This document shows positions 27,260 through 42,155 of a stretch of 64,000 bases of DNA, one piece after another (position 1 is the stretch's first letter; each line of letters starts with the position of its first letter). This DNA is from an uncultured delta proteobacterium (GTDB lineage: Bacteria; Desulfobacterota; Binatia; Binatales; Binataceae). The notes under the pieces were generated by a model. That model searched no databases, was not told where the DNA came from, and saw only the letters and a list, made by a program, of their open reading frames with translations. The translations under genes were made by a program, and so were the position numbers. The stretch covers positions 207,697 to 271,696 of the forward strand of contig CAWDFL010000003.1 of assembly GCA_963801665.1 (NCBI GenBank), given 5' to 3'.

Positions 27260-29278
27260 TCAGCCCTTGGCTTTGCCGCCGCGATAGCGCTCGATCGCCC
27301 GCGCGAGTCCGGAGAACCGTTCGATACGCCGCGCCACCGCCTGTTCGAGCAGGTCTTCGCCGCCAAAGATCACGCATGACCGCCGGCTGCGGCTGACTGC
27401 GGTGTAGATCGTCTCGCGCGAGAGCAGCGGCATGTCGCGTTCGGGCAGAATCAGCGCGACGCAATCGTATTCCGAGCCTTGCGCCTTATGCACCGTCATC
27501 GCGTAGCACAGATCGATCGCGTCCGACAGCATTTCGATTCGGAACGCGGCAAGGCCCGACTCTCGCGCGAACACTGCCGCCAGCGAGCGGCGCCCACCGC
27601 GCTCGGCAAGATTCACCAGCACGCCCTGATCGCCGTTGAACAGCATATGATCGTAATCGTTGTGCAGGACGATAACCGGCTCGCCCGCGATCATCGCGCC
27701 TCGCTCTCGCGGTGTGACGCGGCCAAGCGCCGCGCGATGCATCCGCGTGTTGATCGCGTCGGCGCCGGAGCGGCCAATCCGCGTCACGCAAAGGATTCTG
27801 GCCCGCGCCAGATGCGCGAGCATCCTTGCCACGGTCGCCGAGTCCTCGGCGCTGAATGCACCATCTTCGAGCGAATAAGTCTTCTGCGCCATCGCGGCGT
27901 ACTCATCGGACTCGATTTGCGCGCGCGCGAAGTAGGATAGAAATTCCGGCAGCGACTCCGAGGCGCCGGTGACGAGCTCGACACCGGAAAACGCGATCTC
28001 GGCTGCGGTCGCCCGCTTGATTACCGGACTGTCAGCGGCCGAGATCAGATCGGTGCGTCCCTCGTTGATTTGCCGCGCCGCGAGCGCGATCGCCGCTCCT
28101 CCCGTGTCCTCGGCCTTGGCGCGATAGTTCTTACTTAGCGTCGCACTTGCCGCTGGTTCTGCTCCCGGCATCAGATCGCGCAGCACCGCGCCCGCGGCGA
28201 CCGACGGCAACTGATCCGCGTCACCGACAATCGCCAGGCGCGCCTGCGGCCGCAGCGCCGCCGTCAGATGATCCATCAACGTCAGATCAAGCATCGACGC
28301 TTCATCGACGATCACAACGGACGCGTCGAGCGGATTGCCGCGATGATGAACAAAAGATCTTCGGGTGCTCGAAAATCCGAGCAGGCGATGAATCGTGGAC
28401 GCGGCAGGAATCGCTGCGGCGAGCGTCGAATCTTCGGGCGCGGGATTCTCGATCGAGCTAATCGTGTTCCGGATCGACTCATTCATCCGGTACGCGGCCT
28501 TGCCGGTAGGCGCAGCCAGCGCGATCGCTGCCGGATCAATCCCGACCCGCACCAGCACGCGCAGGATCGCAGCGATAATTGAAGTCTTGCCAGTCCCCGG
28601 TCCTCCGGAAATTATCGCAAGTCGCGAGCCCGCTCCGATTTCCACCGCCCGGCGTTGTTCGTCAGAAAGCACGGCCGCGGCGCCGGCGATCATTGCCGGA
28701 CGAGCAACCAGATCCGCAAGCGACTCCGCGATAGCCTGCTCGCTCGGCGCACTGTCGATATCGATCATCGCCGCGAGGCGCTCGGCGACTCTCTGCTCGG
28801 CGCGGTAGATTCGCTCGTGGTAGAGATACGGCTTCAGATAAAGCAGCGGACGCCGCGCGTCGGGACTTCGTCCGATAACCGCGGGCGCGCTGCCAGCGTC
28901 GAGAATCTCCGCGATTTTTTGCGCGACGCGATCGCGCGCGGAATCGTCGAACGGCGGCGCCATCAGGGCGGAAAGCATCCGCTCCAGCGGTTCTTTTGAT
29001 TCATCGCCGCTCACCGGTAGCCGCGTGTTGCCCTCAGCGACGGCTGCCAGCGACAGGACAATCAGCGCTATCAGCGCGAACCTCGCGCTGTCGTCAAGCT
29101 CGGGCGCGAGCGCGGCGATTTCCGCCGCCAGATGCACCGCGCCAGGATCGAGATTAAGTTCGGCGACCGACGCGCGAAGATGCGCCATGTCGGTGTCGAA
29201 CTGTGTCGCGGCGCGATCCGCACGCGCGCTGCGCTGCCACGCCGTGTCCATTCCGAGCAGAGGGTAGAGGGGTTTCAT
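27260..29278 (-). CDS. recD: Exodeoxyribonuclease V alpha subunit
   Basis: GGPGTGKT, APTGKAA, TIHRLLG, VDEASM, GDADQL, TVHKAQGSE; ATGA overlap with recB. Confidence 0.92.
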   Translation of the reverse strand: MKPLYPLLGMDTAWQRSARADRAATQFDTDMAHLRASVAELNLDPGAVHLAAEIAALAPELDDSARFALIALIVLSLAAVAEGNTRLPVSGDESKEPLERMLSALMAPPFDDSARDRVAQKIAEILDAGSAPAVIGRSPDARRPLLYLKPYLYHERIYRAEQRVAERLAAMIDIDSAPSEQAIAESLADLVARPAMIAGAAAVLSDEQRRAVEIGAGSRLAIISGGPGTGKTSIIAAILRVLVRVGIDPAAIALAAPTGKAAYRMNESIRNTISSIENPAPEDSTLAAAIPAASTIHRLLGFSSTRRSFVHHRGNPLDASVVIVDEASMLDLTLMDHLTAALRPQARLAIVGDADQLPSVAAGAVLRDLMPGAEPAASATLSKNYRAKAEDTGGAAIALAARQINEGRTDLISAADSPVIKRATAAEIAFSGVELVTGASESLPEFLSYFARAQIESDEYAAMAQKTYSLEDGAFSAEDSATVARMLAHLARARILCVTRIGRSGADAINTRMHRAALGRVTPRERGAMIAGEPVIVLHNDYDHMLFNGDQGVLVNLAERGGRRSLAAVFARESGLAAFRIEMLSDAIDLCYAMTVHKAQGSEYDCVALILPERDMPLLSRETIYTAVSRSRRSCVIFGGEDLLEQAVARRIERFSGLARAIERYRGGKAKG

Positions 29279-32200
29279 CGATTGAGCCCCATCTCGAACG
29301 GCCGCATCAGCTCGCGTTCAGCGCGCACCACTTCGGCCCATGGCGGATGATAAAAGTAGACCCCGCGATTTCCGCCGTTGGGCGTGATGCCCCGAATGAA
29401 CAGGTAGAGCAAGCCGCCGAATGCGGCCTCGTATTCAGCCTCGCTGTGAATTCCAAGCAGACGGGTGACGCCGATAGTGTAGATCTTTGCCTGCAGGATG
29501 TAGTTATTCCGCGCGTGCTCCGCGACCGACTCGAGTTCGTACGAGTCCAACAGGTCGCTCTTCCAGTCGGCGAAGTAAACGCGAGCTTCGTGGCGAAAAA
29601 CGAAATCCACGAATCCAACATACACTCCCCGCTCGATTCGCCATCGCGCGGCGTCGTTCGCCGGTCCGGAATCGAGCAGGCGATGAGCCAGCTCGGGCAT
29701 CGGAAACGTGAACTCCATCTCGCGCGAGGACTCGCATCGAGCCAATGCGGGAATGGTTTTGGCTCCAACCGCGATTGGCGATCGCAACGTATTGAAGACA
29801 ATCTCGGGACCGCGAATCATCCAGCGCTCGCGTTCCGGCACCTGATGACGCCGCAGCACGGAATCGAACAGCTCGCGAACTTCAGGCAGCGCGCTCCAGG
29901 TAGTCAGATCGCTCGCAGCAGCCAGAGCGTTCAGATCGAGCTTTTCGATCACCTCGTGCAGAAAGATTCCGGCCGCGGCGCCGCCACCGGGCTCCGATGC
30001 GATCCCTGGAAGCTCGGCGGTGGGTTCGAGGTCGCTCTTGTATTCGCTCAGATCGAGTTCCGGTACGGCGCGCCGATGTAAAGACGTGTACGATAGTGTC
30101 GAAAGCGGGGCGCATCTGTGTGCGAGGGCCGCGAGCTCGCTTTCGAGTTTTGCGGCGCTCGGGTCCGCGAGCAGATTCGCCGGCGGCCTCCATCCGCTGA
30201 TCGAGTTCGCGTTCGCATCGGTCTCGCGCGGAGCCATTTCCAGGGCAACGGTCTCGAATAGAGGCTCCGCAAGCTGTCCGGCCGCGTCCATCGCGCGCAG
30301 GCGGTTGTTGAGCTGCTTGTATGGTCCGGATACGTCCCTTCCGAGTTTAGTCGGGATATACGGAAGATATAGTTTTGCGCGCGCGCGAGTGATCGCTACG
30401 TACAGCAGCCTTTGATCCTCCTCGGCCTCGTCTTGATCGATTTTCTTCTTTTCCTGGCGCTGCGCCTCGCTGCCAATCGCGAGCTGACGATCGCCCTCCC
30501 TGTCATGAAAAATCTTCACCGGACGCGGACTGGTGTTTGCGAAGAAACCGCCGAACACGAAAACGACTCGCGCTTCGAGTCCTTTGGCTTTGTGAATCGT
30601 CATGATCTGGACTGCCGCGCGTTCGCTTTCGAGCCGCATGAGATTCGGATCCTCGCCCGACGGCAGCCGGTACTCGCCGACGTAGGCGGCGAGACGATCG
30701 ACAATGTCCGCGATCGTCCATCCTTCCCTGAGCGATTCCGCGAGGAGCAACTCGAACAGGTGTTCGTAATTGGTAAGCTCGCGCAGATTCGGCGCTCCAA
30801 ACAGTTGACGCGCCGCGAGCCCGCTCTCTTCGAGCAGCGCGTCGAACAACTCGGCGAATTCTCCTTCCTTCGCGAGTCCGTGCCACTTCGCCAGCCGCGC
30901 CATCAGCGGATCGGACGGCTCCGGCTCGCCCAGCTTCGCGAGCTCGCGCATCGGGACGCCGAAAAACGGCGTTGCCCACGCCTTCAGGCGATGCGATCGA
31001 TTGTTAGGCGCGGCGACTGCTCGCAACACGTCGAGGACATCGCGCGCTTCATCGGTCTGAAACAATCCTTCGCGCTTGTAGAATGCGTACGGAACGCCTT
31101 CCGCGCGGAGATACTCGGCAAGTTTGATTCCTTCGGCGTTAGTGTTGGTCAGGATAAAGATATCTCCGTACGCGACCGCGGGTCCGGACTTCGCGCCGTC
31201 AGCGACGGTGATCGCCGAGGCAGGGTCATTCACGATCGCATTGATCGTCGCCGCGATTCGGCACGCGAGCATCCGTCTGAGGGCCGCCGCCTTGTATTTC
31301 GCGTCGTGTTTCGCCGCGATCAGCGTGATTGGGATCAGCTCTTTGCCAGCGGCTTTAGCACACAGATCTTCGCGCCCGCAGGAGACCGGGTTCTGATATT
31401 TGATCGTGCTGCTGAACAGCGGCGGATTCGCGTTCTGATCCAAAATCGCGTTGACGGCGGCGATCATCGGCGCGGTCGAGCGAAAGTTCCGGGTCAGCGC
31501 GATCGGATCATTCGGCGGCGCGGCAATTGTGCTCCGCGCCCGCAGGTAAGCGTGAACATCGGCGCCCCGAAACGAATAGATTGCCTGCTTGGGGTCGCCG
31601 ATAAGATACAAAGCGCTCCGCGTATCGCCCTCGACAAAAATTTTACGGAAGATCGCCCACTGGACTTCGTCGGTGTCCTGGAACTCGTCGATCAGCGCGA
31701 AGCGATAGCGGGCGCGCAGCGCCGCCGCCAGTCTGCCGTCGGCATCGTTCGCGAGCGCTTCGTGCACGCGCTCGAGCATGTCGTCATAGTCGATCACGCC
31801 GCGGCGGAATTTTTCCGCTCGCAGCCACTCGCGTATCGGCCGAACGAACCGGGAGGCCAGCCGAGATTCGATCGACGCCGCCGATGCGCCGCCTTCCGGC
31901 TCATAGTGATTGCTATTCACCTCGAAGAGCATCTTTTCGAGATCGTCAACCGACTTGCCCGAATCTTTAATCCATTTCTCCAGGGGCTCGGAGTATTCGG
32001 CGTCGGATATTTTTTTTTCGCGCAACACCGCGCGAAACGCCTCGTGGAACAACGCGCGTCCATCGGCGGCCTCGGTCCCGAACCTTGCGCCGGTATCGAA
32101 TGCGAGTTCAGTCAGGACTCGTTGGCAGAAGCTGTGAATCGTATGAATCGGCGCGCGCTCAAAGGAAAACAGCGCCGCCTCGAGCGGCGCGATCAGATCG

Positions 32201-32481
32201 ATGCCGGGGAACGCCGATTTGATCGCGTTATCGTCCGCATACGCCGCGCGCAGAGCGCGATCGATCGCGGCGCGAACGCGAGCGCGCAGCTCCGCGGTCG
32301 CACGCTGCGTGAAGGTGACGGCCAGGATTTGATCGAGCTTCGCTTCTCCGCGAATCAGCAACTCGACAATCAGATGCTCGAGCGTGAAGGTCTTGCCGGT
32401 GCCGGCACTGGCCTCGATCACGCGATGCGCGCCGAGTCCGATTTTGTCGATGACGGCGGGACGGATATAGGCGCCGTTCAT
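29275..32481 (-). CDS. recB: Exodeoxyribonuclease V beta subunit (helicase-nuclease)
   Basis: EASAGTGKT, DEFQDTD, GDPKQAIYSFRGAD, TIHKAKGLE, YVAITRA; nuclease GFVDFVF...ADWKS. Confidence 0.92.
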   Translation of the reverse strand: MNGAYIRPAVIDKIGLGAHRVIEASAGTGKTFTLEHLIVELLIRGEAKLDQILAVTFTQRATAELRARVRAAIDRALRAAYADDNAIKSAFPGIDLIAPLEAALFSFERAPIHTIHSFCQRVLTELAFDTGARFGTEAADGRALFHEAFRAVLREKKISDAEYSEPLEKWIKDSGKSVDDLEKMLFEVNSNHYEPEGGASAASIESRLASRFVRPIREWLRAEKFRRGVIDYDDMLERVHEALANDADGRLAAALRARYRFALIDEFQDTDEVQWAIFRKIFVEGDTRSALYLIGDPKQAIYSFRGADVHAYLRARSTIAAPPNDPIALTRNFRSTAPMIAAVNAILDQNANPPLFSSTIKYQNPVSCGREDLCAKAAGKELIPITLIAAKHDAKYKAAALRRMLACRIAATINAIVNDPASAITVADGAKSGPAVAYGDIFILTNTNAEGIKLAEYLRAEGVPYAFYKREGLFQTDEARDVLDVLRAVAAPNNRSHRLKAWATPFFGVPMRELAKLGEPEPSDPLMARLAKWHGLAKEGEFAELFDALLEESGLAARQLFGAPNLRELTNYEHLFELLLAESLREGWTIADIVDRLAAYVGEYRLPSGEDPNLMRLESERAAVQIMTIHKAKGLEARVVFVFGGFFANTSPRPVKIFHDREGDRQLAIGSEAQRQEKKKIDQDEAEEDQRLLYVAITRARAKLYLPYIPTKLGRDVSGPYKQLNNRLRAMDAAGQLAEPLFETVALEMAPRETDANANSISGWRPPANLLADPSAAKLESELAALAHRCAPLSTLSYTSLHRRAVPELDLSEYKSDLEPTAELPGIASEPGGGAAAGIFLHEVIEKLDLNALAAASDLTTWSALPEVRELFDSVLRRHQVPERERWMIRGPEIVFNTLRSPIAVGAKTIPALARCESSREMEFTFPMPELAHRLLDSGPANDAARWRIERGVYVGFVDFVFRHEARVYFADWKSDLLDSYELESVAEHARNNYILQAKIYTIGVTRLLGIHSEAEYEAAFGGLLYLFIRGITPNGGNRGVYFYHPPWAEVVRAERELMRPFEMGLNR

Positions 32482-35400
32482 TCGCCCCCGTCCTCATCGC
32501 CAAACAGTGATCTGATCGGCCCAAAGCGGCGATTCACCAGATCAAATATTTTCTCCGGGCTGGGCAGTTCGAGCTCGCGCCATCGGCGCAACGGACCGTA
32601 TGCCGAACTGGGCAAACCGAAATCGCCGTCCTGATCACGCATTTCTTCGAGCGCCGAGATCGCTTCCGCCGCGTCGCTGCCCTTTCGGGATAGCCTGACA
32701 ACTTTTTCCGCCGCTTCGATCGGAAGGAAATAGTCGTGCGGGTCGGAAAGCAGATCGCTGACAAGCCTGGTCAGATACTCGACCGCCTGATCCTTTTCCG
32801 GCGCGACGAGCGTTCCGATCCAGGGCGGCAGTTTTTTCTTTTCTGCCGCTGTACCCACAAGGATTGCTCTGAACTCTTTTGGGATTGGTTGACCCGCCGC
32901 CTTGAGCACAATCGCGTTCACGAACAGAGGCAGGAAATGCCGGACTTTGGCGTCCTTGCGTGCTACGCATTGCAACGCCGCGTCGAATCCGGGTGAGAAG
33001 GCTCCGACGCTTCCGTAGAGCCTGACTCGCCGCGAGATAATTTTGCCGGGCGCCGTCCGCACCGGCACTTCGAGTACCAGATAGGGCAGAATCTCTTGCG
33101 ACGATGACGCGTGCTCGTCGGCGCGGCCGATACGAAACTCTTTCCACTCCGACAAGTTGCCGGCCTTTGCCGCCTCTGCGTACTTGCTCCAGCCGCGGAT
33201 CAAATTCAGATCCTGATCGCGCAATGTATCCGCTATTGGACCGGCTGGTGCGCGTCCTTTCATCTGCGCCAGCGCCGCCGCGCGCAGGTATTCGGATTTA
33301 GCGGCGGTATCGCTCGTCGGCAGCTTCCAAAAGACCTCGCGCAAGAGCATCACCTGGTCGAGCCTGGTCATGCCGACCGGTTCGTCCGCGATATCTTCGT
33401 CGGCGTCCTCGTCTTCGCTCATGCCCAGCGCATAGCGGGCGGCTCCCTGCGCGGGACACTCGAGAAATTTTCGTAACGCGGCGACCGGCAGATACAAGTC
33501 GGCGTCGCGCTCGGTGACTTCGGCCGCTTCACTCGTTTTCGGAATTCGCAGATCGGGACGCAGAGCCTCGCGCGCTTCGGGCGAGAGCGCTGCCAAAAGC
33601 TCGCGTGCGTCGAGACGCGCGGCATCATCGGTGTAATGGTCCAGATCTTGGCGTAACGCCGTTATTCGCGCGCCTTGGCGCGCAGCGCTATCGACGCTGA
33701 GCCCGTTGAGCGGCGATACGCCGCCGCCAGGGTCTCCGAAGTAGCCGACATCATAACGGCTGACCGGATGGGCCAGGGTCAAAGCGTCGACCGCGGCTTC
33801 CTTGAGATACGAGCCGAGAATGAGTTGGAGTTCGCGAATGACCGTTGAGGGCTCGAGCGCGTCCCCGGTGTGCGGATCGCGTGCAACGTACGAGAACGCG
33901 ATCCGCTCGCGCGCGGCCAGAATCGATTCGAGGAACATGTACCGATCGCGATCGGTCGGACTCAAGTCGCCGGCATGGCGCCGGATCCCGCGAAGGTCGA
34001 GCGGGTCGCGAGGATCGCGCGCCGGAAAAAACGACTCGCCGAGACCCATCACGAAAATCGCGCGAAAGGGGATCGAGTGCAGCGTGCCCATCGCGCCCGC
34101 TGCTACTCCATGTCCCGCGAAGCGTACCTGGCGCGCGCCGAGCTCATCGATCAGCGCCGACGCCATCGCCTCCGCCACGGCGTAGGAAACCTCAGGGCTT
34201 TCGATTTCCTCCGTACGCATCGCGTCAATAGCAGCCAGGCATCGGTCGCGCATCTGCCGATCTTCGGGCTCGTCGACGATGACATACCGCTCGATCATCC
34301 GCATGAGCAGTTGTGCCCATCGCCTGAGGCTCATCCGCTCGCGCCTGATCGCGTTTGCGTCGGCCAGGAGCGCGCGCGTAGTGCTGACGAACGCCTGCGC
34401 CGCGGGGATTTCGCTCTCGTCGATCTCGAGCGGCAGCAACGCGCCAATTTCCGCCGACTCGAACAGCCGATCGTCGCCGCTGCGTTCGCCCGACATGAAT
34501 GCTCCCAGCGCGAGTCGTTTGAGCGCCTGGTCCCAATTGAAAAGATTGGCCGGAATATAGGTCGCGGCTGGATCGCCTCCATCGGCGCCGAAGAAAACTC
34601 CCAACTCCTCGCACCAGGCATCCCACAGTTCAACGTCGAGCGCCGGGTCGCCGCCATTGAGCGCACGATGCTTCAGCAGGCGCAGCAGATCGGCGCGCGT
34701 AAACCGGCCGAGCGGGAGTTTGAGCAGCAGACTGATCGCTTCGGCGACGCGACTTTGGCGTGCAACGCTGCGTCCACTGATCTCGACCGGGATGCCATGG
34801 ATTCGCGCGAAGACTGCTTCAATATGCGGCGCGTAAACTTCGCATTCGGAGTCTGGAATCAGCACGCCAATCTCATTAAAGCGAAGCGGATTCTTTCCGG
34901 ATGCGCTCCGCTGCAAGAGCCGCCAGATCTCGCTCGCGACAATCTCGACCTCGCGCTGGATTCCGGGGCATGCGAGAAATCGAATGCTCGCCGGCGAAGC
35001 AGCGTCCCGCAGTTCAGCGCCGCGCGAGCGATCCAGGATATCTTGCTGAACACGTGAAAGAAGTGACGCGTCTTTGCCGTCCGGCTGGTCGATGAAGTTC
35101 GATTCGAAATCACAATCGCTGAGCTCGTTGAGCAGGCGGATATATTCGCGGCCGGGCAGGCCCCATAACTCCAGCGCGCGATTGTCGGCGGCAGCAAGGC
35201 CGAATGGATCTTCACTCTTTTCAAGCTCCCCGTCGATCCGGCTTCCGCGATGAACCCAATTCGTCGTGGCATCGCGGCGCGAGGTATTCAGATCTTCCCA
35301 GAACTCGCGGCATGGATTGAGCGCGTAAATCGAAAGCGCGCCGCACTTTCCGAGCCGCGCGAAAATCTCCGCATAAGCTTGCCCCGGCGAGGCGAGTCCG

Positions 35401-36074
35401 AATACGTGGAGTCCGTCGCGCATCGCTTCGGTGAGGGCCGCATCGCTGATTCGCGCGAACGCGCCCGGCAAGAGCATCCAGTCGTGCGCCGCGTCGCCAG
35501 TCCATTGGGGATTTGCGGCGCCGCTTGCGTCGAAGATGATTCGCCATAGAGCTTGTTGCCATTTTTCATTCTCGGCGATTGCGGTGCCGGCTGCCGCCAC
35601 GCGGCCGCCACTCCACCGCGCAAGCATCGTGCAGCGGGAAATCGAGTACTCTTCAAACAGCTTTGCCACACGTCCCGACAACTCGAAGGCTCGCAGCTCC
35701 GCCTCGGGAGTATCGCGCCCGCCGCCCGCGTCGATGTATCGCCACGCGGGTGCAAGTTGCGAGTCAGCCCGATTTTTCAGGCTAATCAGACTGTTGAAGA
35801 TGACGAGCTGAAGTGCGCCCGCGGCGAGCACGCGCAGCCGGGGATTGGCGTTCTGAACAATGTTGGTCAGGTGCGTGCGCAGGAATGGAAAAGCGAGATT
35901 GGCGGCGACTCCCAGACGCTCGGCGGTCTGATACTTCACGAACTGCTCGACGGCCCGGCTCGGTACGACGATCGCGATCTTTCGCAACGGTTTGCGCCGC
36001 TGCTGCTCGGCGATCGAGTCTGCGAGCGGCTCGATCAATCCTTCGAGCCTGTTCGAGTAGTGAAGCTTGAGCAT
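32478..36074 (-). CDS. recC: Exodeoxyribonuclease V gamma subunit
   Basis: YSNRLE start, NPCREFWED, REVE, IPFRAIFVMGL...FP, DRYMFLE; ATGA overlap with recB. Confidence 0.9.
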   Translation of the reverse strand: MLKLHYSNRLEGLIEPLADSIAEQQRRKPLRKIAIVVPSRAVEQFVKYQTAERLGVAANLAFPFLRTHLTNIVQNANPRLRVLAAGALQLVIFNSLISLKNRADSQLAPAWRYIDAGGGRDTPEAELRAFELSGRVAKLFEEYSISRCTMLARWSGGRVAAAGTAIAENEKWQQALWRIIFDASGAANPQWTGDAAHDWMLLPGAFARISDAALTEAMRDGLHVFGLASPGQAYAEIFARLGKCGALSIYALNPCREFWEDLNTSRRDATTNWVHRGSRIDGELEKSEDPFGLAAADNRALELWGLPGREYIRLLNELSDCDFESNFIDQPDGKDASLLSRVQQDILDRSRGAELRDAASPASIRFLACPGIQREVEIVASEIWRLLQRSASGKNPLRFNEIGVLIPDSECEVYAPHIEAVFARIHGIPVEISGRSVARQSRVAEAISLLLKLPLGRFTRADLLRLLKHRALNGGDPALDVELWDAWCEELGVFFGADGGDPAATYIPANLFNWDQALKRLALGAFMSGERSGDDRLFESAEIGALLPLEIDESEIPAAQAFVSTTRALLADANAIRRERMSLRRWAQLLMRMIERYVIVDEPEDRQMRDRCLAAIDAMRTEEIESPEVSYAVAEAMASALIDELGARQVRFAGHGVAAGAMGTLHSIPFRAIFVMGLGESFFPARDPRDPLDLRGIRRHAGDLSPTDRDRYMFLESILAARERIAFSYVARDPHTGDALEPSTVIRELQLILGSYLKEAAVDALTLAHPVSRYDVGYFGDPGGGVSPLNGLSVDSAARQGARITALRQDLDHYTDDAARLDARELLAALSPEAREALRPDLRIPKTSEAAEVTERDADLYLPVAALRKFLECPAQGAARYALGMSEDEDADEDIADEPVGMTRLDQVMLLREVFWKLPTSDTAAKSEYLRAAALAQMKGRAPAGPIADTLRDQDLNLIRGWSKYAEAAKAGNLSEWKEFRIGRADEHASSSQEILPYLVLEVPVRTAPGKIISRRVRLYGSVGAFSPGFDAALQCVARKDAKVRHFLPLFVNAIVLKAAGQPIPKEFRAILVGTAAEKKKLPPWIGTLVAPEKDQAVEYLTRLVSDLLSDPHDYFLPIEAAEKVVRLSRKGSDAAEAISALEEMRDQDGDFGLPSSAYGPLRRWRELELPSPEKIFDLVNRRFGPIRSLFGDEDGGE

Positions 36075-36137
36075 CCCCTTTTTCTCCGCGCGTCAGGCTG
36101 ACGATATGAGTTTCGATCTGCCTCGTCCAACACGCTC

Positions 36138-36186
36138 ATTATATTCGCTTCAAAAGACAGCGGTTGTCTTGGCGAAACGCTATAAT
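36138..36186. promoter_or_regulatory. Symmetric bidirectional promoter/operator between recC and the WYL gene
   Basis: ATTATA(36138-43)-N10-AAGACA(36154-59)-N5-TGTCTT(36165-70)-N10-TATAAT(36181-86). Confidence 0.8.
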
Positions 36187-36213
36187 TGAGATGCTCTCAA
36201 GGAGGGCGCACTG

Positions 36214-37245
36214 ATGGCGGTCAAATCAAGAAAACCAACCTATGAGTCGGGAATCCGTTACGCGCGAATCGCAATGATGCTGACGGAAGAGCCGCTCGGA
36301 GTGCCGCTCCAGAGAATTCAGCGCGAGCTTGGGGTGAGCGGACGCACGGTGGATCGCTATGTGCGCGAGTTCGTGAGGATGCGCGGAAAGCTTGGGCAAG
36401 GAGTCGTCGAGGCGGTGGGCGCCGGACCGAGCCGCAAGCTGCGGTTGGTCGCGCGCCGGGGCGGGCCGAGCTCGAATGTCTACCAGGCGGCGGCGATGTA
36501 CTCGAGCCTGGCGCTGCTGAAATTTCTCGAGGGCACCGTGCTCAAGTCGGGAGTTGACGATATCTGGGAGCGGGTGCGGACCAACCTGCCGCCAGCGTGG
36601 CAGTTCAGGCTCCGCGACTTCAACCGCAAGTTCTACACCGTGCAATACGTTCCCAAGGATTATCGTCCGTACGAAGAGCAGATCGACGTGATTATGCGCG
36701 CGCTGCTCGACGAGAAGCGCCTGCGAATCCATTACGCGTCGATGAACCGAACCGACGGCAGCGATCGCACGCACGATTTCAATCCCTACACTCTGGTTCA
36801 ATATCGCGGCGGACTGTATCTGCTGGGCCGCAGTCATCGCGGCACCGGGATTATCTATTTGGCCGTCGAGCGGATGCGCTCGGTGGAATTCATCAAAGAC
36901 GAGTCCGGCACTGACGAAAGATTCCAGTTGCCCGCATCCTACAATCCGGCGGCCTTCGTGCAGGGAACATTCGGGATCGTCAGCGAGGATCGCGAGACGA
37001 TCGTAGTACTGAAAAGCCTCAGTCCGGAAACGGACGCTCGCCTTGGCGCGCGCACTATTCATCCTTCCCAGCAGCTTTCGGTGGCGCGCGACGGCCGGAC
37101 GCTCTTGCGGCTCAAGCTCAAAGGGACCGCGGAGCTTGCCAACTGGATCATGGCGATGAGCCCGTTTATCAAGGTGCTCGAACCCAAGACCCTCCGCGAC
37201 GAAATCAAAGCCCGGATTCGCGATACCTCCCGCGTCTATGCGTAG
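36214..37245 (+). CDS. wHTH-WYL-WCX transcriptional regulator
   Basis: N-terminal HTH (ELGVSGRTVDRY), WYL core (PYTLVQYRGGLYLLG...AVERM), WCX (ELANWIMAMSPFIKVLEPKTLR); RBS AAGGAGG. Confidence 0.88.
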   Translation: MAVKSRKPTYESGIRYARIAMMLTEEPLGVPLQRIQRELGVSGRTVDRYVREFVRMRGKLGQGVVEAVGAGPSRKLRLVARRGGPSSNVYQAAAMYSSLALLKFLEGTVLKSGVDDIWERVRTNLPPAWQFRLRDFNRKFYTVQYVPKDYRPYEEQIDVIMRALLDEKRLRIHYASMNRTDGSDRTHDFNPYTLVQYRGGLYLLGRSHRGTGIIYLAVERMRSVEFIKDESGTDERFQLPASYNPAAFVQGTFGIVSEDRETIVVLKSLSPETDARLGARTIHPSQQLSVARDGRTLLRLKLKGTAELANWIMAMSPFIKVLEPKTLRDEIKARIRDTSRVYA

Positions 37246-37364
37246 AGGGGTGGCGCGGAGGCTCAGTGATTTCTGATAACATCGCGAGCGCATTCGGGGC
37301 GGCGAGAGGGCGGTCCGTGGCGGCGGATTCACCACGCACTCGGGAGTTATTCAGGAGGGGCGAT

Positions 37365-38501
37365 TTGCACATACGCAATCTTTCGCTTGCGCTACTGATT
37401 GTAGCGGCAATTGCCGGGGAAGTCGGATGCGGTAATCACCCTAAACCCACCACCGAGCCGCCGATCGCGGTAACCGTACGCGCGGTCAGGGAAGCTACGC
37501 AGGCCCATCGCGGCGCATACACCGCGAATCTCCAGCCCTATCGCCAGGTTGGCCTGACGTTTCAGGTTAGCGGCTACGTCGAGACGATCAAGCAAGTTGC
37601 GGGAGCGGGAGGACGCACCCGCGATATCCAGGGCGGCGATCCTGTGAAAAATGGCGAGTTGCTCGCGACGATCCAGACCGGACCCTATCAGCAGCAGGTC
37701 AATCAGGCCGCCTCGGTGCTGGTCAATGCGGAAGCGACCTATGCGAAGGCAAAGGCCGACTACGATCGCAATAGCGCCCTGTTCAAGGAAAAGATCATCG
37801 CGCAACGCGACTATGACAATGCCGTTCAACAGTACCGATCTTCCGATGCGCAGGTGAAGCAGTCCGAGGCCTCGCTCAAGCAGGCGCAGATCAATCTCGG
37901 TTACTGCAAGCTGACCTCGCCGATGGACGCCGTGATGCTGAGCCGCGGAATCGAAATCGGCTCGCTGGTCGGCCCGAGTGTCGTCGCGTTTCAGATTGCC
38001 GACACGACCGAGATGAAGGCGATCTTCGCAGTCTCGGATATAGAAGTGGGCCAGTTGAAACAGGGGCAAGCACAGACCCTGCGCAGTGAAGCGCTGCCGG
38101 GTGTGCAGCTCGAAGGACAAATCACGCGGATTGCGCAAAGCGCCGACCCGAACACGCGTACCTTCGATGTCGAGCTCACGATCCCGAACAAGGACGGCCG
38201 CTTGCGCGTCGGGATGATCGCGTCGCTCAAGCTCGCCAATGGCGCGTCCGCGCCGGCCGCGACCGCAGCGACGGTTCCAATAAATGCAGTCGTGCGGCCG
38301 CCCGAGGATCAGAGCGGCTATGCCGTATTCGTCGCCAGCGAAGAGGGCGGCAAGACGGTCGCGCGGATGCGCAAGGTGCGGCTGGGCGATATCGTCGGCA
38401 ACGAAATCGCGGTTAACTCCGGAGTCGCGATTGGCGACCGCGTGATCGTGCGCGGCGCCACGATGGTTACCGACGGCCAGGAAATCCGGATCATCCCGTA
38501 A
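37365..38501 (+). CDS. RND efflux periplasmic adaptor subunit
   Basis: Lipoyl-hairpin pattern FQVSGYV...LTSPMDA, DPNTRTFDVE, LRVGM; TTG start after GGAGGGG. Confidence 0.88.
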   Translation: MHIRNLSLALLIVAAIAGEVGCGNHPKPTTEPPIAVTVRAVREATQAHRGAYTANLQPYRQVGLTFQVSGYVETIKQVAGAGGRTRDIQGGDPVKNGELLATIQTGPYQQQVNQAASVLVNAEATYAKAKADYDRNSALFKEKIIAQRDYDNAVQQYRSSDAQVKQSEASLKQAQINLGYCKLTSPMDAVMLSRGIEIGSLVGPSVVAFQIADTTEMKAIFAVSDIEVGQLKQGQAQTLRSEALPGVQLEGQITRIAQSADPNTRTFDVELTIPNKDGRLRVGMIASLKLANGASAPAATAATVPINAVVRPPEDQSGYAVFVASEEGGKTVARMRKVRLGDIVGNEIAVNSGVAIGDRVIVRGATMVTDGQEIRIIP

Positions 38502-41500
38502 TGGCACATCGCAGCGACGAAGAAATAATCCGCACGACCCATAACACCGCGCGGTTTTTTGTAGAGAATCGCGCAATCTCGTGGGTGCTGCTGGCCGCCG
38601 TGGTCGCGTGGGGCATTTACGGCTACCTGCACATGCCCAAGCGCAAGGATCCGGATATTCCCGTGCGCCAGGCGCTCGCCGTATGCCCGTGGCCGGGAGT
38701 CAGCGCCGAGAAAATCGAGCAGACGGTTACGCGCAAGATGGAGGAGAAGATCGCGACCAACTCTTACATCCATCCCGCCGGCGCCGGGACCGACTACGGA
38801 ATCAGGTCGCTGACGCTCGACGGGATCGCAATCGTTTATATTCAGCTCACTGAAAACGTCGGCGATACCGAAAAGCAATTCAACGACATCAATCTCAAGC
38901 TCGCCAGTATCCGCGATCTGCCCAGCGGCGCCGGCCCGATCCAGTTCCAGAGCGATTTCGGCGACACCGCGGCGTTGATGCTGACCGTCGCGAGCCCCAA
39001 GGTGAACGAGGTCGAGATCGCTCTGCGCGCGCGCGAGGTTCGCGCCGCTATCGAGAAAGCGCGCGCGAGCGCCGCGCCGGACTCGAAATCCAATCGTATC
39101 TCGCTAGTGACGATCTTTCCGCCGACGATGCCTGCCGAGTCGGTGACGCGGGTGCGCGACGCGCTGTCGCGTTATCTGGCGGAGCATCACGCGGCGGCCG
39201 ATATTCGCCCTCTCGACGGATCGGGTTTCTCGGGCCTCGACGCGGCACAGCCTGCGGGCGCCGACCTGGTGAAATCGGCGACTGCCTATATCAACTCCCA
39301 GGTCGGGACCTCGATGTTCGAGGCGTTTCATCCCGACGCGTGGCCGCCGGTGGCGATCGTGGATCCCGCCAAGACCGAGGCGATTCTCGAAGCCTCGGCG
39401 GGTGACAAGTACACCTACCGTGATCTCAAGCGCTACACCGATCTGATCTCGCGGGCTCTGGAAGCGGTTCCCGAACGTCGAGAAGATCTCGCGCACCGGC
39501 ATTCTGCCGGAATGGGTCAACCTGGTCTACTCGCAAGAGCGGCTTGCGTCCTATGGTTTCACGCCGAGCAAGCTCTCGCAGATTTTGTCGTCGCGCAACA
39601 TCACGCAGTCGGCCGGGATGATCAACGCGGCCGGCACCGACGTGACGCTGCATCCGAGCGGCGAATTTACCGACGCGCAGGAGATCGGCGACGTGATTCT
39701 CGGCAAGTCGGAATCCGGATCGCCGTTCTACCTGCGCGATCTGGCGGATATCTCGCGCGGGTACCAGGCGCCGCCGCGGCTCCTGAATTTCTATACCTGG
39801 AAGACTGCCGACGGGCACTGGAACCGCGGACGCGCGATCACGATCGCGGTATTTATGCGCTCGGGCGAGCAGATAAGCGCGTTCGGTGCGGCAGTCGACA
39901 AGGCGATTGCCGGGCTTAAGACCCGCCTGCCCGAGGACCTCGTCGTCGCGCGCACCTCGGATCAGCCGCTCCAGGTTCGCGAAAATGTGCACCTGTTCAT
40001 CGGTGCGCTGTACGAGGCGATCGCGCTGGTGGTCGTCATCGCGCTGATCGGCTTCTGGGATTGGCGCGCGGCGCTGCTGATCGCGCTATCGATTCCGCTC
40101 ACGCTCGCGATGACGTTCGGCATGATGTACATCCTCGGCATCGATCTCCAGCAGGTGTCGATCGCGACGTTGATCATCGCGCTCGGACTGTTGGTGGACG
40201 ATCCTGTGGTGGCGGGCGACGCGATTAAGCACGATCTGGGTCTTGGGCATCCGGCGGAAGTCGCGTCGTGGCTTGGGCCGACCAAGCTCGAACGCGCAAT
40301 CCTGTTCTCGACCATCACCAACATCGTTGCTTATTTGCCGTTTCTGTTGCTCTCGGGCGACACCGGGAACTTTCTCTACAGCCTGCCGATCGTGATGACC
40401 TGCGCACTGGTCGCGTCGCGGATCATCTCGATGACTTTTATTCCGCAACTCGGTTACTACCTGATGCGGCCCGGAAAACCGCTGCCGCCGATCGAGTATC
40501 GGCGCACCCACGGCGCCACCGGCGTGTACTACCGGATTGGGCACTACGCATTGGAGCATCGCAAGACCTTTGTCGCGTGCTCGATGCTGTTTCTGATCGC
40601 GGGGTTTCTGGTCGCGAAGCAATTGCGCAGCGCGTACTTTCCCGAAGACGTTCAGTACCTGTCGTATATCGACGTATGGCTTCCCAACGGCGCGGCGATT
40701 TCCGAGACCGACGCGACCGTGAAAAAAGTCGCGGCGGTGGTGCGAGGCGCGGCCGCTGAATACGGCAAGGAACATCCCGAGCACGGACATCCGCGCACGA
40801 TCCTGAAATCGATCACCAGCTTTGTCGGCGGTGGTGGGCCGCGCTTCTGGTTTTCCGTTTCACCGGAATCGCCGCAGGCAAACTACGCGCAGTTGATCCT
40901 CGAGATCGAAAATAAGGAAGACATGCCGAAGTTCGTCGGCCCGCTCCAGAATCTCATCTCGAAGGAAGTTCCCGGCGCGTACGTTGACGTGTGCCAGCTG
41001 CTGACCAATCCGGTGCGCTATCCAATCGAGGTGCACATCTTTGGCCAGGCCGATATCGATCCGGCGCGCGAACAGGCGGACATCGAGACGCTTCAGCAGA
41101 TCGCCAACCAGGCCGAGGCGGTGCTGCGCTCGGTTCCCGGCGCACGGCGCATCCGCACTGACTGGATGGCCGAGAGTCCGGTCATCAATCTGCCGATAAA
41201 TCCCGATCGCGCGAATCTGGCCGGCGTCACCAATCAGGACATCGCCAATTCCGCCGCCGCGGGCCTTTCCGGAGCGCAGGTGGGAACGCTGATCAGCGGC
41301 GACCTGCGCATCCCGATCGTCGCGCGCCTGCGGCAGGAGGAGCGCGCCCAGCTTTCAGATTTGGGAAGTCTTTACATCTACGCGTCGCAAGGAAACGGGC
41401 GGGTTCCGATCCAGGCGGTTGCGCCAATCGTGTTTCGATTGTCGCCCGAACGGATTGTCCGCCGCGATCACTTTCGCACGATCTCCGTGATCGCCTATCC

Positions 41501-42155
41501 AGCTCCCGGGGTGCTTCCGTCGGAAGTTATGAAGATCGCGACGCCGAAGCTCAAAGAGATCGCGAGCCATTTGCCGCCCGGCTACCGGCTCGAGATCGGC
41601 GGCGAGCAGGCCAAGCAGAGCGAAGGCTTTGGCGAGTTGGCGGTGGTGCTGTTGATCTCGGTCGTGCTGATCTTCGTCGCGCTGGTGGTGCAGTTCAACA
41701 ATCTCGTAAAGCCGTGGCTGGTGTTCGTGGCGGTGCCGTATGGCGCGGTCGGCGCGGTCGCCGCGCTTTGGATCATGGGCGCGCCGTTCGGCTTCATGGC
41801 ATTTTTGGGCATCGCGAGCCTGGTCGGCGTGATCGTCAGCCACGTAATCGTGCTGTTCGAGTTTATCGAAGAGCGCCGCGAGATGGGCGAGGAACTGATC
41901 CAGGGATTGCTCGACGCGGGAATCGAGCGCCTGCGTCCGGTGATGGTGACCGTGGGCGCGACTCTGCTGGCGTTGTTTCCGCTGGCGCTGCACGGCGGCC
42001 CGCTATGGCAGCCGCTGTGCTACGCGCAGATCGGCGGGCTCGCGCTCGCGACGGTGATCGAGCTGATCCTGGTCAAATCGTTCTATGCGATTTTCGTCGC
42101 CGATCTCGGAATCCTGAAATGGGCGCCGCACGCCGCCTCCAGCAAGGAACCTTAA
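38501..42155 (+). CDS. RND efflux permease (AcrB family), frameshift near 39471
   Basis: WPGVSAEKIEQ, ALGLLVDD, RLRPVMVT; split over ORFs 38501..39919 and 39585..42155. Confidence 0.88.

What the first reader, a model, noticed from the sequence alone, without database searches (positions are those of the whole stretch)
36138..36186. Mirror-symmetric bidirectional promoter with PafBC-like -26/-10 spacing on both strands
Seen: both strands read TGTCTT-N10-TATAAT, built around one AAGACA-N5-TGTCTT dyad with extra TTCGC/GCGAA symmetry in the spacers; no consensus -35 sits at the normal distance. Known: the mycobacterial PafBC promoter is TGTCGG-N10-TA-N3-T, where the WYL activator redirects the housekeeping sigma to a -26 element (sigma adaptation). 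Inference: one WYL homodimer on the dyad could activate both recCBD and its own gene, extending sigma adaptation beyond Actinobacteria. Repression from the same site is the alternative.
Basis: partly seen in the sequence, partly recalled or inferred. Interest (0 to 1): 0.85.

Follow-up and report, generated by a model that had tools for sequence, protein, structure and literature searches.

The report
WYL-regulator box between recC and its regulator
A short symmetric DNA site between the recCBD DNA-repair genes and a neighbouring WYL-type regulator gene looks like the regulator's docking site, placed where it could switch recCBD on, much as known DNA-damage regulators of this type work.

Summary
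Positions 36138-36186 read ATTATA-N10-AAGACA-GCGGT-TGTCTT-N10-TATAAT. This arrangement occurs once in the 4.63-Mb genome, and neither strand has a usable -35.

The dyad core, GAC-N7-GTC, is the conserved operator of the adjacent wHTH-WYL-WCX protein. That protein's nearest solved relatives are the activators DriD and PafBC, not the repressors CapW and BrxR.

In 28 of 28 recC-linked orthologous loci, a TAnnnT hexamer lies 12 nt (24 loci) or 11 nt (4 loci) from the box on the recC side. The spacer sequences there are unrelated. On the regulator's own side the distance drifts from 9 to 15 nt, and it is 12 only in the window's closest relatives.

tRNA promoters in this genome carry normal -35 elements, so their absence here is meaningful.

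Best reading (about 0.6): a DriD-type, box-dependent promoter activates recCBD. The regulator's own promoter may also be activated.

PafBC-style sigma adaptation in the strict sense is unlikely, because both half-sites are conserved and the protein is predicted to form a homodimer. CapW-like repression remains the main rival.

WYL activators outside Actinobacteria are already in print (DriD, DdaA), as is WYL control of recC. This is therefore a new member of a known kind, with an unusual mirror-symmetric layout.

The parts
36156..36168 (.). WYL-regulator box GACAGCGGTTGTC. The core is GAC-N7-GTC. It sits inside the AAGACA-N5-TGTCTT dyad at 36154-36170.
   Evidence: Read directly. The family consensus GACAAC-N-GTTGTC is found with 2 or fewer mismatches upstream of the WYL gene in 69 of 110 loci (54 non-identical). 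This is the only site in the genome that pairs the box with a -10; 7 of the other 8 sites lie inside long ORFs, and the intergenic eighth has no -10 12 nt away.
36138..36143 (-). -10 hexamer TATAAT of the box-dependent recC promoter (P1), 12 nt from the box. The start is expected near 36131.
   Evidence: A TAnnnT lies 12 nt (24 loci) or 11 nt (4 loci) from the box in 28 of 28 recC-linked loci. No -35 is present.
36181..36186 (+). -10 hexamer TATAAT of the regulator's own promoter, 12 nt from the box. The start is expected near 36193, the Shine-Dalgarno sequence AGGAGGG is at 36200-36206, and the ATG is at 36214.
   Evidence: A -10-like hexamer is present on this side in 25 of 28 recC-linked loci. 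Its distance from the box is 12 nt (6 loci), 13 (13), 14 (4), 9 (1) or 15 (1).
36214..37245 (+). wHTH-WYL-WCX regulator gene (343 aa, P0001).
   Evidence: Pfam finds WYL, WCX and HTH_23. Best solved relative is DriD: E 5.5e-7 with the single sequence and 6e-16 with the family profile, full length; PafBC gives 8.6e-11; no CapW or BrxR chain at E<=10. Foldseek gives DriD 1.7e-16, PafBC 1.1e-12, CapW/BrxR about 3e-7. R44, T45 and R48 align with DriD R37, T38 and R41.
27260..36074 (-). recC (32478-36074), recB (29275-32481) and recD (27260-29278): the presumed target operon.
   Evidence: Pfam Exonuc_V_gamma and RecC_C; UvrD-helicase. NCBIfam best matches are recC, recB and recD; only recD is above its cut-off.
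36101..36130 (-). Second, recC-proximal promoter-like element (P2): TTGGAC (36130-36125), N18, TATCGT (36106-36101).
   Evidence: [TA]TGGA[CT]-N18-TAnnnT is kept in 12 of 13 loci examined: L001-L011 and L030, but not L038. It stays next to recC even where 100-430 nt are inserted between it and the box. It matches only 7 of 12 consensus positions and was not listed by the scan.

Best explanation
The 49-bp element is a back-to-back promoter pair built around one operator, GAC-N7-GTC at 36156-36168. The operator serves the adjacent wHTH-WYL-WCX protein, which binds it as a homodimer with one Arg-x3-Arg recognition helix on each GAC/GTC half-site.

On the recC side, the promoter has a -10 hexamer exactly 12 bp from the proximal half-site and no -35. 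RNA polymerase with the housekeeping sigma should therefore depend on the bound regulator, which occupies the -35 position. [quoted passage not shown] By analogy, the regulator would bind its box once its WYL domain has bound a nucleic-acid ligand, probably single-stranded DNA. recCBD transcription would then rise above the basal level supplied by a second, conventional-looking promoter nearer to recC.

In this species and its five closest relatives, the regulator's own promoter is a mirror image at the same spacing. The same dimer might drive either promoter, one polymerase at a time.

Shown here:
- the sequence layout;
- conservation of the box;
- the fixed spacing on the recC side;
- the lack of a -35;
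- kinship to DriD and PafBC.

Inferred:
- binding of the protein to the box;
- activation rather than repression;
- the identity of the ligand;
- activation of the regulator's own promoter.
For: 1. Operator. The box lies 19-57 nt upstream of the WYL start in most family members, down to about 40% identity. R44, T45 and R48 are at least 90% conserved or invariant. They align with DriD Arg37, Thr38 and Arg41, which read the guanines of the DriD site (PMC10853764, passages read).

2. Same box geometry as known activators. DriD binds ATACGAC-N7-GTCGTAT (PMC13004042). DdaA binds CGWCA-N5-TGWCG (PMC12392091, section 26).

3. Length constraint on the recC side. A TAnnnT lies 12 nt (24 loci) or 11 nt (4 loci) from the box in 28 of 28 recC-linked, non-identical loci. 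These come from at least four lineages, including an Acidobacteriota MAG (L038), and their spacer sequences are unrelated. In the same loci the own-side distance varies from 9 to 15 nt. Insertions and deletions therefore do happen on this time scale, and that serves as an internal control.

4. Same spacing as PafBC's tGTCgg(N10)tA(N3)T. By my own reading of the oligonucleotides printed in PMC13004042, it is about the same as at two DriD promoters: GTC-N12-CAATCT and GGC-N12-CAAGGT, give or take 1 nt.

5. No -35. The best match is 2 of 6 and the scan found 0 sites. Yet tRNA promoters in this genome have canonical -35 elements: TTGCCA-17-GATAAT, TTGACC-18-TACAAT, TTGACA-17-TAGGAT and TTGACT-17-TAAGTT.

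6. Closest solved relatives are activators.

7. Homodimer prediction: score 0.60 against a best control of 0.00. This mark was reached by 20 of 30 proteins solved as pairs and 1 of 23 solved as single chains. The runs agree in at least 81% of contacts, partner pLDDT is at least 74, and the interface runs through the WCX end. The pass may come from likeness to solved WYL dimers.
Against: - There are no expression or binding data. No RNA run was listed, so starts, direction and sign of regulation are all inferred.
- CapW represses from a palindrome in a bidirectional promoter (PMC11662680), so the layout alone does not give the sign.
- Other members of this same protein family have layouts typical of autorepression. 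The own -10 is only 9 nt from the box in L016, L101, L105 and L109. In L103, L106, L108 and L119 an own-strand TATAGT or TATAAT lies 10-11 nt upstream of the box (my reading of the listing).
- Two DriD ssDNA-contacting arginines, R204 and R207, align with I214 and the invariant A217. R178 aligns with the invariant H187. The ligand may therefore differ. That alignment rests on about 20% identity.
- The 28 loci are kin, from roughly 4-6 lineages, not 28 independent trials.
- Four loci have 11 nt rather than 12.
- The DriD spacing is my own reading of printed oligonucleotides. The figure that shows it was not visible.
Confidence: 0.6

Rival explanations
1. CapW/BrxR-like repression. The WYL dimer sits on the dyad without ligand and blocks both divergent promoters. 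Ligand binding releases it and derepresses recCBD and its own gene.
For: CapW is a wHTH-WYL-WCX homodimer that binds a palindrome in a bidirectional promoter and represses until ssDNA arrives (PMC11662680, passages read). The box covers the -35 region of both promoters. Other members of this family have operator positions typical of autorepression. RecBCD also has an anti-phage role, which fits the kind of genes these repressors usually control (established knowledge, not tested here).
Against: Without a -35 or an extended -10, the two promoters should be weak once derepressed, in an organism whose tRNA promoters use a -35. A repressor does not need a spacer fixed at 12 nt while the spacer sequence diverges freely. 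No CapW or BrxR chain matches the family profile at E<=10, whereas DriD scores 6e-16. Foldseek ranks the repressors about nine orders of magnitude below DriD.
Confidence: 0.22
2. PafBC-type sigma adaptation in the strict sense. One HTH reads the -26 half-site, and the other HTH holds sigma region 4 instead of DNA. This is what the first reader proposed.
For: TGTC-N12-TATAAT equals the PafBC consensus spacing, and there is no -35. PafBC is the second-closest solved relative.
Against: Both half-sites are conserved across the family, which implies that both HTHs are on DNA. One gene encodes a predicted homodimer. The genome's only other WYL gene lies about 636 kb away. DriD is the closest relative and has the same palindrome type, yet it makes almost no sigma contact and uses the beta subunit and the alpha-CTD (PMC13004042).
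Confidence: 0.08
3. Split sign. The dimer activates recCBD but represses, or does not affect, its own promoter, so the mirror symmetry in this species has no function of its own.
For: Own-side spacing is 12 nt in only 6 of 28 recC-linked loci, and 13, 14, 9 or 15 nt or absent in the rest. The two promoters overlap completely, with their -10 hexamers 37 bp apart, so a polymerase on one excludes the other (inference). DriD activates only the operon divergent from driD, and DriD levels do not change on damage (PMC13004042). ddaA transcription is also unchanged after UV (PMC12392091, section 30).
Against: In the window and five relatives, both hexamers are near-perfect and sit exactly 12 nt away. 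The own-side hexamer is kept within 12-14 nt in 23 of 28 loci. That is tighter than expected for an unconstrained promoter.
Confidence: 0.3

Closest known systems
DriD of Caulobacter crescentus and its promoters (PMC13004042, PMC10853764, PMC9186387)
   Same: Same wHTH, three-helix bundle, WYL and WCX order, aligned over the full length. Same Arg-x3-Arg base readers. Same palindrome core, GAC-N7-GTC. The box overlaps the -35 position, there is no -35, and the distance to the -10 is fixed. The regulator gene sits in a bidirectional promoter.
   Different: Only about 20% identity. The outer half-site bases differ (AAGACA against ATACGAC). DriD's centre is AT-rich, whereas here it is GCGGT. DriD has several targets (didA, bapE, recJ, dnaG), whereas here only this intergenic site pairs the box with a -10. 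The driD side has no matching promoter and is not activated, whereas here the own side mirrors the target side. Some ssDNA-contact residues are not kept.
PafBC of mycobacteria and the -26 element (sigma adaptation) (PMC8635444, PMC11804915)
   Same: TGTC-N12-TAnnnT spacing, no -35, a WYL-family activator of DNA-repair genes, and a GTC triplet read by two arginines.
   Different: PafBC is a heterodimer whose element is not palindromic, and PafC's HTH holds sigma region 4. Here the site is a two-half-site palindrome with a predicted homodimer. PafBC controls about 150 genes, whereas here there is one locus.
DdaA of Moraxellaceae (PMC12392091)
   Same: A homodimeric WYL activator. Its motif CGWCA-N5-TGWCG shares the GWCA-N5-TGWC core with AAGACA-N5-TGTCTT. 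The paper states that DdaA regulates recC, among other genes, in some lineages.
   Different: The DdaA motif is reported about 50 bp upstream of the start, whereas here the box centre would be near -31. Whether P0001 falls in the DdaA cluster could not be tested, because no DdaA sequence was reachable with these tools.
SiwR of Mycobacterium smegmatis (PMC10693628)
   Same: A homodimeric WYL activator of an adjacent gene pair. It has a 19-bp imperfect palindrome between the -35 and -10 regions, and the -26 region is required.
   Different: The triplet is different (GGA), the host is an actinobacterium, and the targets are DinB-like genes. A mirror promoter was not described in the passages I read.
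CapW / BrxR repressors (PMC11662680)
   Same: wHTH-WYL-WCX homodimers with a palindrome in a bidirectional promoter. They are ssDNA-responsive, and RecBCD products act as the signal.
   Different: They are repressors of defence operons. There is no sequence match to the family profile at E<=10, and their fold rank is lower.

Membership tests
DriD-type WYL activator with its box promoter | Domain order: wHTH, three-helix bundle, WYL, WCX | tested here: met
   Pfam finds HTH_23, WYL and WCX. The alignment to DriD is full-length: 10-342 against 23-344, and profile E 6e-16. The model shows helices 86-107, 114-124 and 127-132 between the HTH and the WYL domain. DriD chains take Foldseek ranks 1-7.
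DriD-type WYL activator with its box promoter | Two arginines of the recognition helix read the guanines of each half-site (DriD R37 and R41) | tested here: met
   R44 and R48 align with R37 and R41. R48 is invariant and R44 and T45 are at least 90% conserved in 19 family members. The alignment is at about 20% identity.
DriD-type WYL activator with its box promoter | Palindromic site with a GAC-N7-GTC core upstream of the regulator gene | tested here: met
   36156-36168. The consensus GACAAC-N-GTTGTC is found with 2 or fewer mismatches in 69 of 110 loci.
DriD-type WYL activator with its box promoter | Box over the -35 position, no -35 hexamer, fixed distance to the -10 | tested here: met
   On the recC side the distance is 12 nt (24 loci) or 11 nt (4 loci) in 28 of 28 loci. 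The best -35 match is 2 of 6.
DriD-type WYL activator with its box promoter | Homodimer | tested here: met
   Prediction only: score 0.60, best control 0.00. This mark was reached by 20 of 30 proteins solved as pairs and 1 of 23 solved as single chains. At least 81% of contacts are shared between runs and partner pLDDT is at least 74. The pass may reflect memory of solved WYL dimers.
DriD-type WYL activator with its box promoter | ssDNA-binding residues of the WYL pocket | tested here: inconclusive
   Y174, R198 and Y202 align with DriD Y168, R189 and Y192 and are conserved. DriD R178, R204 and R207 align with H187 (invariant), I214 and A217 (invariant).
DriD-type WYL activator with its box promoter | Ligand-dependent activation of transcription | not testable with these tools
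   This needs binding and transcription assays. No RNA run was listed.
PafBC sigma adaptation | Heterodimer of two WYL proteins (PafB and PafC) | tested here: not met
   There is one WYL gene at the locus. The only other WYL match in the genome is at C3:880742. A homodimer is predicted.
PafBC sigma adaptation | Non-palindromic -26 element, tGTCgg-N10-tAnnnT, with no -35 | tested here: inconclusive
   The spacing and the lack of a -35 are met. However, the element is one half of a conserved palindrome.
PafBC sigma adaptation | The second HTH contacts sigma region 4, and there is no DNA binding without polymerase | not testable with these tools
   This needs a structure or biochemistry.
CapW/BrxR WYL repressors | Membership of the CapW/BrxR sequence cluster | tested here: not met
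   No CapW or BrxR chain is found at E<=10 with the family profile. Foldseek E values are 2.9e-7 to 3.5e-6, against 1.7e-16 for DriD.
CapW/BrxR WYL repressors | The operator overlaps a self-sufficient promoter of a defence operon | tested here: inconclusive
   The promoters lack a -35. In the PADLOC library, RecC has no match and RecB and RecD give only generic helicase matches.
DdaA cluster | Motif CGWCA-N5-TGWCG | tested here: inconclusive
   The core GACA-N5-TGTC matches. The outer C and G are A and T here.
DdaA cluster | Motif about 50 bp upstream of the start | tested here: not met
   The box centre at 36162 lies about 31 nt from either expected start (PMC12392091, section 30).
DdaA cluster | Placement with DdaA in a protein tree | not tested
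   No DdaA sequence could be obtained through the tools.

The most novel reading that the evidence does not exclude
One symmetric WYL dimer site stands in for the -35 of two back-to-back promoters, so a single bound dimer can load polymerase in either direction. That would make it a true two-way activator site, which DriD's own bidirectional promoter is not. It would also wire recCBD into a positive loop, in which RecBCD makes ssDNA, the WYL sensor binds it, and more RecBCD and more sensor are made.

Behind this would stand a common promoter rule for WYL activators, GTC-N12-TAnnnT. The rule would be shared by PafBC, DriD, this family, and a second, more distant WYL subfamily in the same phylum (5 of 7 loci).
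Probability: 0.25. Interest if true: 0.6.

Novelty: new member of a known kind. Interest (0 to 1): 0.45.

Why it matters
In E. coli, recBCD is not known to be damage-inducible (recalled, not checked here). This locus suggests that an uncultured soil lineage, Binataceae, and at least one Acidobacteriota MAG place the double-strand-break resection and anti-phage nuclease under a dedicated nucleic-acid-sensing regulator. A normal LexA gene is also present in the genome.

The fixed 12-nt rule gives a sequence-only way to tell likely activated targets of WYL regulators from mere operator sites in genomes that cannot be cultured.

The exactly mirrored version in this species is a natural test of whether a symmetric WYL dimer can activate in both directions.

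None of this overturns current views. It extends the DriD, DdaA and PafBC picture to a new family and phylum.

Tried and rejected
**Regulon search.** TGTC-N12-TAnnnT has 92 hits genome-wide with no sign of enrichment. GAC-N7-GTC followed by N11, N12 or N13 and TAnnnT has 16, 15 and 11 hits. Nine sites match GACAAC-N-GTTGTC with 1 or fewer mismatches, including the window's. Of the other eight, seven lie inside long ORFs and the intergenic one (C1:1394104) has no -10 12 nt away. The regulator therefore looks local, and no regulon was found.

**Expression.** No RNA holder was listed for 35400-37300.

**Canonical promoter.** The scan found none in 35700-36600.

**AAGACA as a -35.** It lies 21 nt from the opposite -10, which is too far, so this was rejected by inspection.

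**The TATAAT pair as part of a longer protein-binding palindrome.** Rejected, because distant loci carry varied TAnnnT hexamers (TATGTT, TAGGTT, TATGAT, TACACT, TATTAT, TAACTT) and the spacers are not symmetric in register.

**The conserved CGTCAG-G-CTGACG near recC as a protein site.** Only its right half is conserved.

**DdaA membership.** No DdaA sequence was available, so this was not tested.

**Exact DriD box-to-(-10) distance.** The figure and supplements were not visible. My figure of 12 (plus or minus 1) comes from the printed oligonucleotides and from where the authors put an optimal -35. Supplementary figures of PMC13004042 and PMC12392091 may settle this. Supplements were closed.

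**Rows left out of the spacing count.** Of 144 loci, 34 had no N-terminal WYL match or too little upstream DNA. Of the remaining 110, 41 had a best box with 3 or more mismatches and were dropped. The remaining 69 collapsed to 54 non-identical loci.

**Unpublished genomes.** G010 is flagged unpublished. It supplies L008 and L079, one of the four 11-nt loci. The same sequence is also held as L036 from a named public record. G494, also flagged unpublished, was not fetched.

Full report
**What is there**

One search shows ATTATA (36138-36143), a 10-nt spacer, AAGACA (36154-36159), GCGGT, TGTCTT (36165-36170), a 10-nt spacer and TATAAT (36181-36186). Both strands therefore read TGTCTT-N10-TATAAT.

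This pair is unique in the 4.63-Mb, 61.5% G+C genome. TGTCTT-N10-TATAAT occurs only at these 2 places, the dyad occurs only here, and TATAAT occurs only 329 times on both strands.

Neither strand has a -35. Hexamers 16-19 nt upstream match TTGACA in at most 2 of 6 positions, and the sigma-70 scan found nothing in 35700-36600.

The 'extra TTCGC/GCGAA symmetry' is out of register by 4 nt, so it is not part of the dyad symmetry.

To the left, on the minus strand, lie recC, recB and recD. To the right lies a 343-aa protein with HTH, WYL and WCX domains. Close relatives of the genome are named Candidatus Binataceae MAGs.

**The dyad is the regulator's operator**

I fetched homologues of the WYL protein (P0001) from relatives, from the class and from the phylum (144 loci in all). 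The family is found in 85 of 301 genomes sampled from the class at E<=1e-70.

Of the 110 loci that hold the protein's N-terminus and enough upstream DNA, 69 have a site with 2 or fewer mismatches to GACAAC-N-GTTGTC within 320 nt upstream. Thirty of these match exactly. The site is kept with homologues of only about 40% identity and with quite different neighbours.

The core is GAC-N7-GTC, here at 36156-36168.

**Kinship**

- The best solved relative is the Caulobacter activator DriD, aligned over the full length. E is 5.5e-7 with the single sequence and 6e-16 with a 19-member family profile.
- PafBC follows at 8.6e-11.
- No CapW or BrxR chain appears even at E<=10.
- A predicted model (mean pLDDT 75) gives the same order by Foldseek: DriD 1.7e-16, PafBC 1.1e-12, CapW/BrxR about 3e-7. 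TM-scores are modest (0.44-0.50) because the domain arrangement differs.

DriD binds ATACGAC-N7-GTCGTAT, and its Arg37 and Arg41 read the guanines (PMC13004042 and PMC10853764, passages read). In the alignment these residues correspond to R44 and R48, which are conserved in the family.

DdaA of Moraxellaceae binds CGWCA-N5-TGWCG, the same GWCA-N5-TGWC core (PMC12392091, section 26).

A homodimer is predicted, with score 0.60 against a best control of 0.00. This mark was reached by 20 of 30 proteins solved as pairs and 1 of 23 solved as single chains. The runs share at least 81% of contacts and partner pLDDT is at least 74. The pass may reflect likeness to solved WYL dimers.

**The spacing test**

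For the 54 non-identical loci with a recognisable box, I listed every TAnnnT hexamer 4-21 nt from the box on both sides.

| Side | Offset from the box (nt): number of loci |
|---|---|
| Away from the WYL gene | 12: 26; 11: 4; 8, 13, 15 and 20: 1 each |
| WYL gene's own side | 9: 5; 10: 3; 12: 6; 13: 1; 14: 5 |

- Split by neighbour, all 28 loci in which recC is the divergent gene have the hexamer at 12 nt (24 loci) or 11 nt (4 loci).
- Of the 26 loci with other neighbours, two have it at 12 nt, one each at 8, 13 and 20 nt, and 21 have none.
- The 28 loci come from the window's genus, a second genus (14 loci), a third (L113) and an Acidobacteriota MAG (L038).
- Their 12-nt spacers share no sequence.
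- With a looser -10 definition, the own side of those 28 loci has a hexamer at 12 nt (6 loci: the window and its five closest relatives), 13 (13), 14 (4), 9 or 15 (1 each) or none (3).

The recC-side spacer is therefore constrained in length while the own-side spacer in the same loci is not. That is the mark of a protein which must face polymerase in a fixed way. These loci are kin, so they represent perhaps 4-6 independent lineages, not 28 trials.

**Comparison with known activators**

PafBC's in vivo motif is tGTCgg(N10)tA(N3)T. PafB's HTH is on the -26 element and PafC's HTH is on sigma region 4 (PMC8635444). That is the same GTC-N12-TAnnnT spacing.

[quoted passage not shown] From the printed oligonucleotides, and from where the authors inserted an optimal -35, I read GTC-N12-CAATCT and GGC-N12-CAAGGT. 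This is my reading, good to about 1 nt.

DriD contacts the beta subunit and the alpha-CTD and makes almost no sigma contact.

A site with two conserved half-sites, bound by a homodimer closest to DriD, therefore fits the DriD mode better than sigma adaptation in the strict sense.

**Why the lack of a -35 means something**

Upstream of tRNA genes in this genome I find ordinary promoters close to the gene: TTGCCA-17-GATAAT, TTGACC-18-TACAAT, TTGACA-17-TAGGAT, TTGACT-17-TAAGTT and others. This organism's housekeeping polymerase uses a -35, so the two box-flanking promoters should be weak by themselves.

**A second recC promoter**

Between the box promoter and recC lies a block conserved in the genus. 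Read on the recC strand, it is TTGGAC-N18-TATCGT (36130-36125 and 36106-36101).

It is kept in 12 of 13 loci examined. It stays next to recC even where 100-430 nt, in some species a small ORF, are inserted between it and the box. It matches only 7 of 12 consensus positions.

I read it as a weak constitutive promoter, so recCBD would have a basal promoter and a regulated one. In the second genus there is no room for it, because the box lies 51-54 nt from the recC start.

**Scope of the regulator**

Only the window's site combines the box with a -10. Of the other eight near-matches, seven lie inside long ORFs and the intergenic one has no -10 12 nt away. The genome has a LexA gene and one other WYL gene. 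This looks like a local regulator, not a global damage regulon.

**What speaks against activation**

- There are no binding or expression data.
- CapW represses from a palindrome in a bidirectional promoter.
- Other family members have layouts that look like autorepression. The own -10 is 9 nt from the box in four loci. In L103, L106, L108 and L119 an own-strand -10 lies 10-11 nt upstream of the box.
- Three DriD residues that touch ssDNA align with H187, I214 and A217, so the ligand is uncertain.

**Verdict**

It is too specific about the mechanism, and it has been overtaken on the claim that this would be the first case outside Actinobacteria. WYL control of recC is already mentioned for DdaA homologues. 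A search for 'Binatota' together with 'RecBCD' found no paper, and the search turned up only the DdaA work (paper and its preprint) linking a WYL regulator with recC.

I rate the element a new member of a known kind, with a mirror-symmetric layout that is worth a bench test.

Noticed in passing
36101-36130 (-): A conserved recC-proximal promoter-like element, TTGGAC-N18-TATCGT, is kept in 12 of 13 loci examined. It stays attached to recC when insertions separate it from the box.
   Followed up: partly
L007, L011, L030 and L038, between the box and recC: Some relatives carry a small ORF between the box promoter and recC. In L038 it is about 68 aa with two Cys pairs (zinc-ribbon-like) and its own Shine-Dalgarno sequence. 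In L007 it is about 66 aa. The window lacks such an ORF.
   Followed up: no
38501-39919 and 39585-42155 (+): The AcrB-type RND transporter downstream of the WYL and HlyD genes is split into two ORFs that overlap by 335 nt in different frames. This points to a frameshift, a pseudogene or an assembly error.
   Followed up: no
37266-38501 (+): An HlyD-family gene starts 20 nt after the WYL stop codon. It follows the WYL gene in L001-L008 but in none of the other 20 recC-linked loci. In this subclade the regulator's promoter may therefore also drive an efflux operon.
   Followed up: partly
L057, L058, L060, L061, L066 (also L047, L062): A more distant WYL subfamily in the phylum (25-35% identity) has its own box, TTTGAC-N7-GTCAAA. 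A TAnnnT lies exactly 12 nt away on the divergent side in 5 of 7 loci. Its neighbours include ARPP-1 domain proteins.
   Followed up: partly
L016, L101, L105, L109; and L103, L106, L108, L119: Family members not linked to recC show other operator layouts. In the first group the own -10 (TACAAT) is 9 nt from the box. In the second group an own-strand TATAGT or TATAAT lies 10-11 nt upstream of the box. Both look like autorepression.
   Followed up: partly
L013, L014, L017, L018, L019, L021: Divergent neighbours of family members that are not next to recC include DUF5925-AAA ATPases, a ClpP-like SDH protease, a PIN-domain protein, an SbcD-like phosphoesterase and an HWE histidine kinase.
   Followed up: no
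P0001 residues 187, 214 and 217: The family has an invariant His187 and an invariant Ala217 where DriD has the ssDNA-contacting Arg178 and Arg207. The sensed ligand may therefore differ from DriD's.
   Followed up: no
G000 C3:880742-880933 and C1:315735-316337: The genome holds a second WYL-domain gene and a LexA gene that scores above the family cut-off.
   Followed up: no
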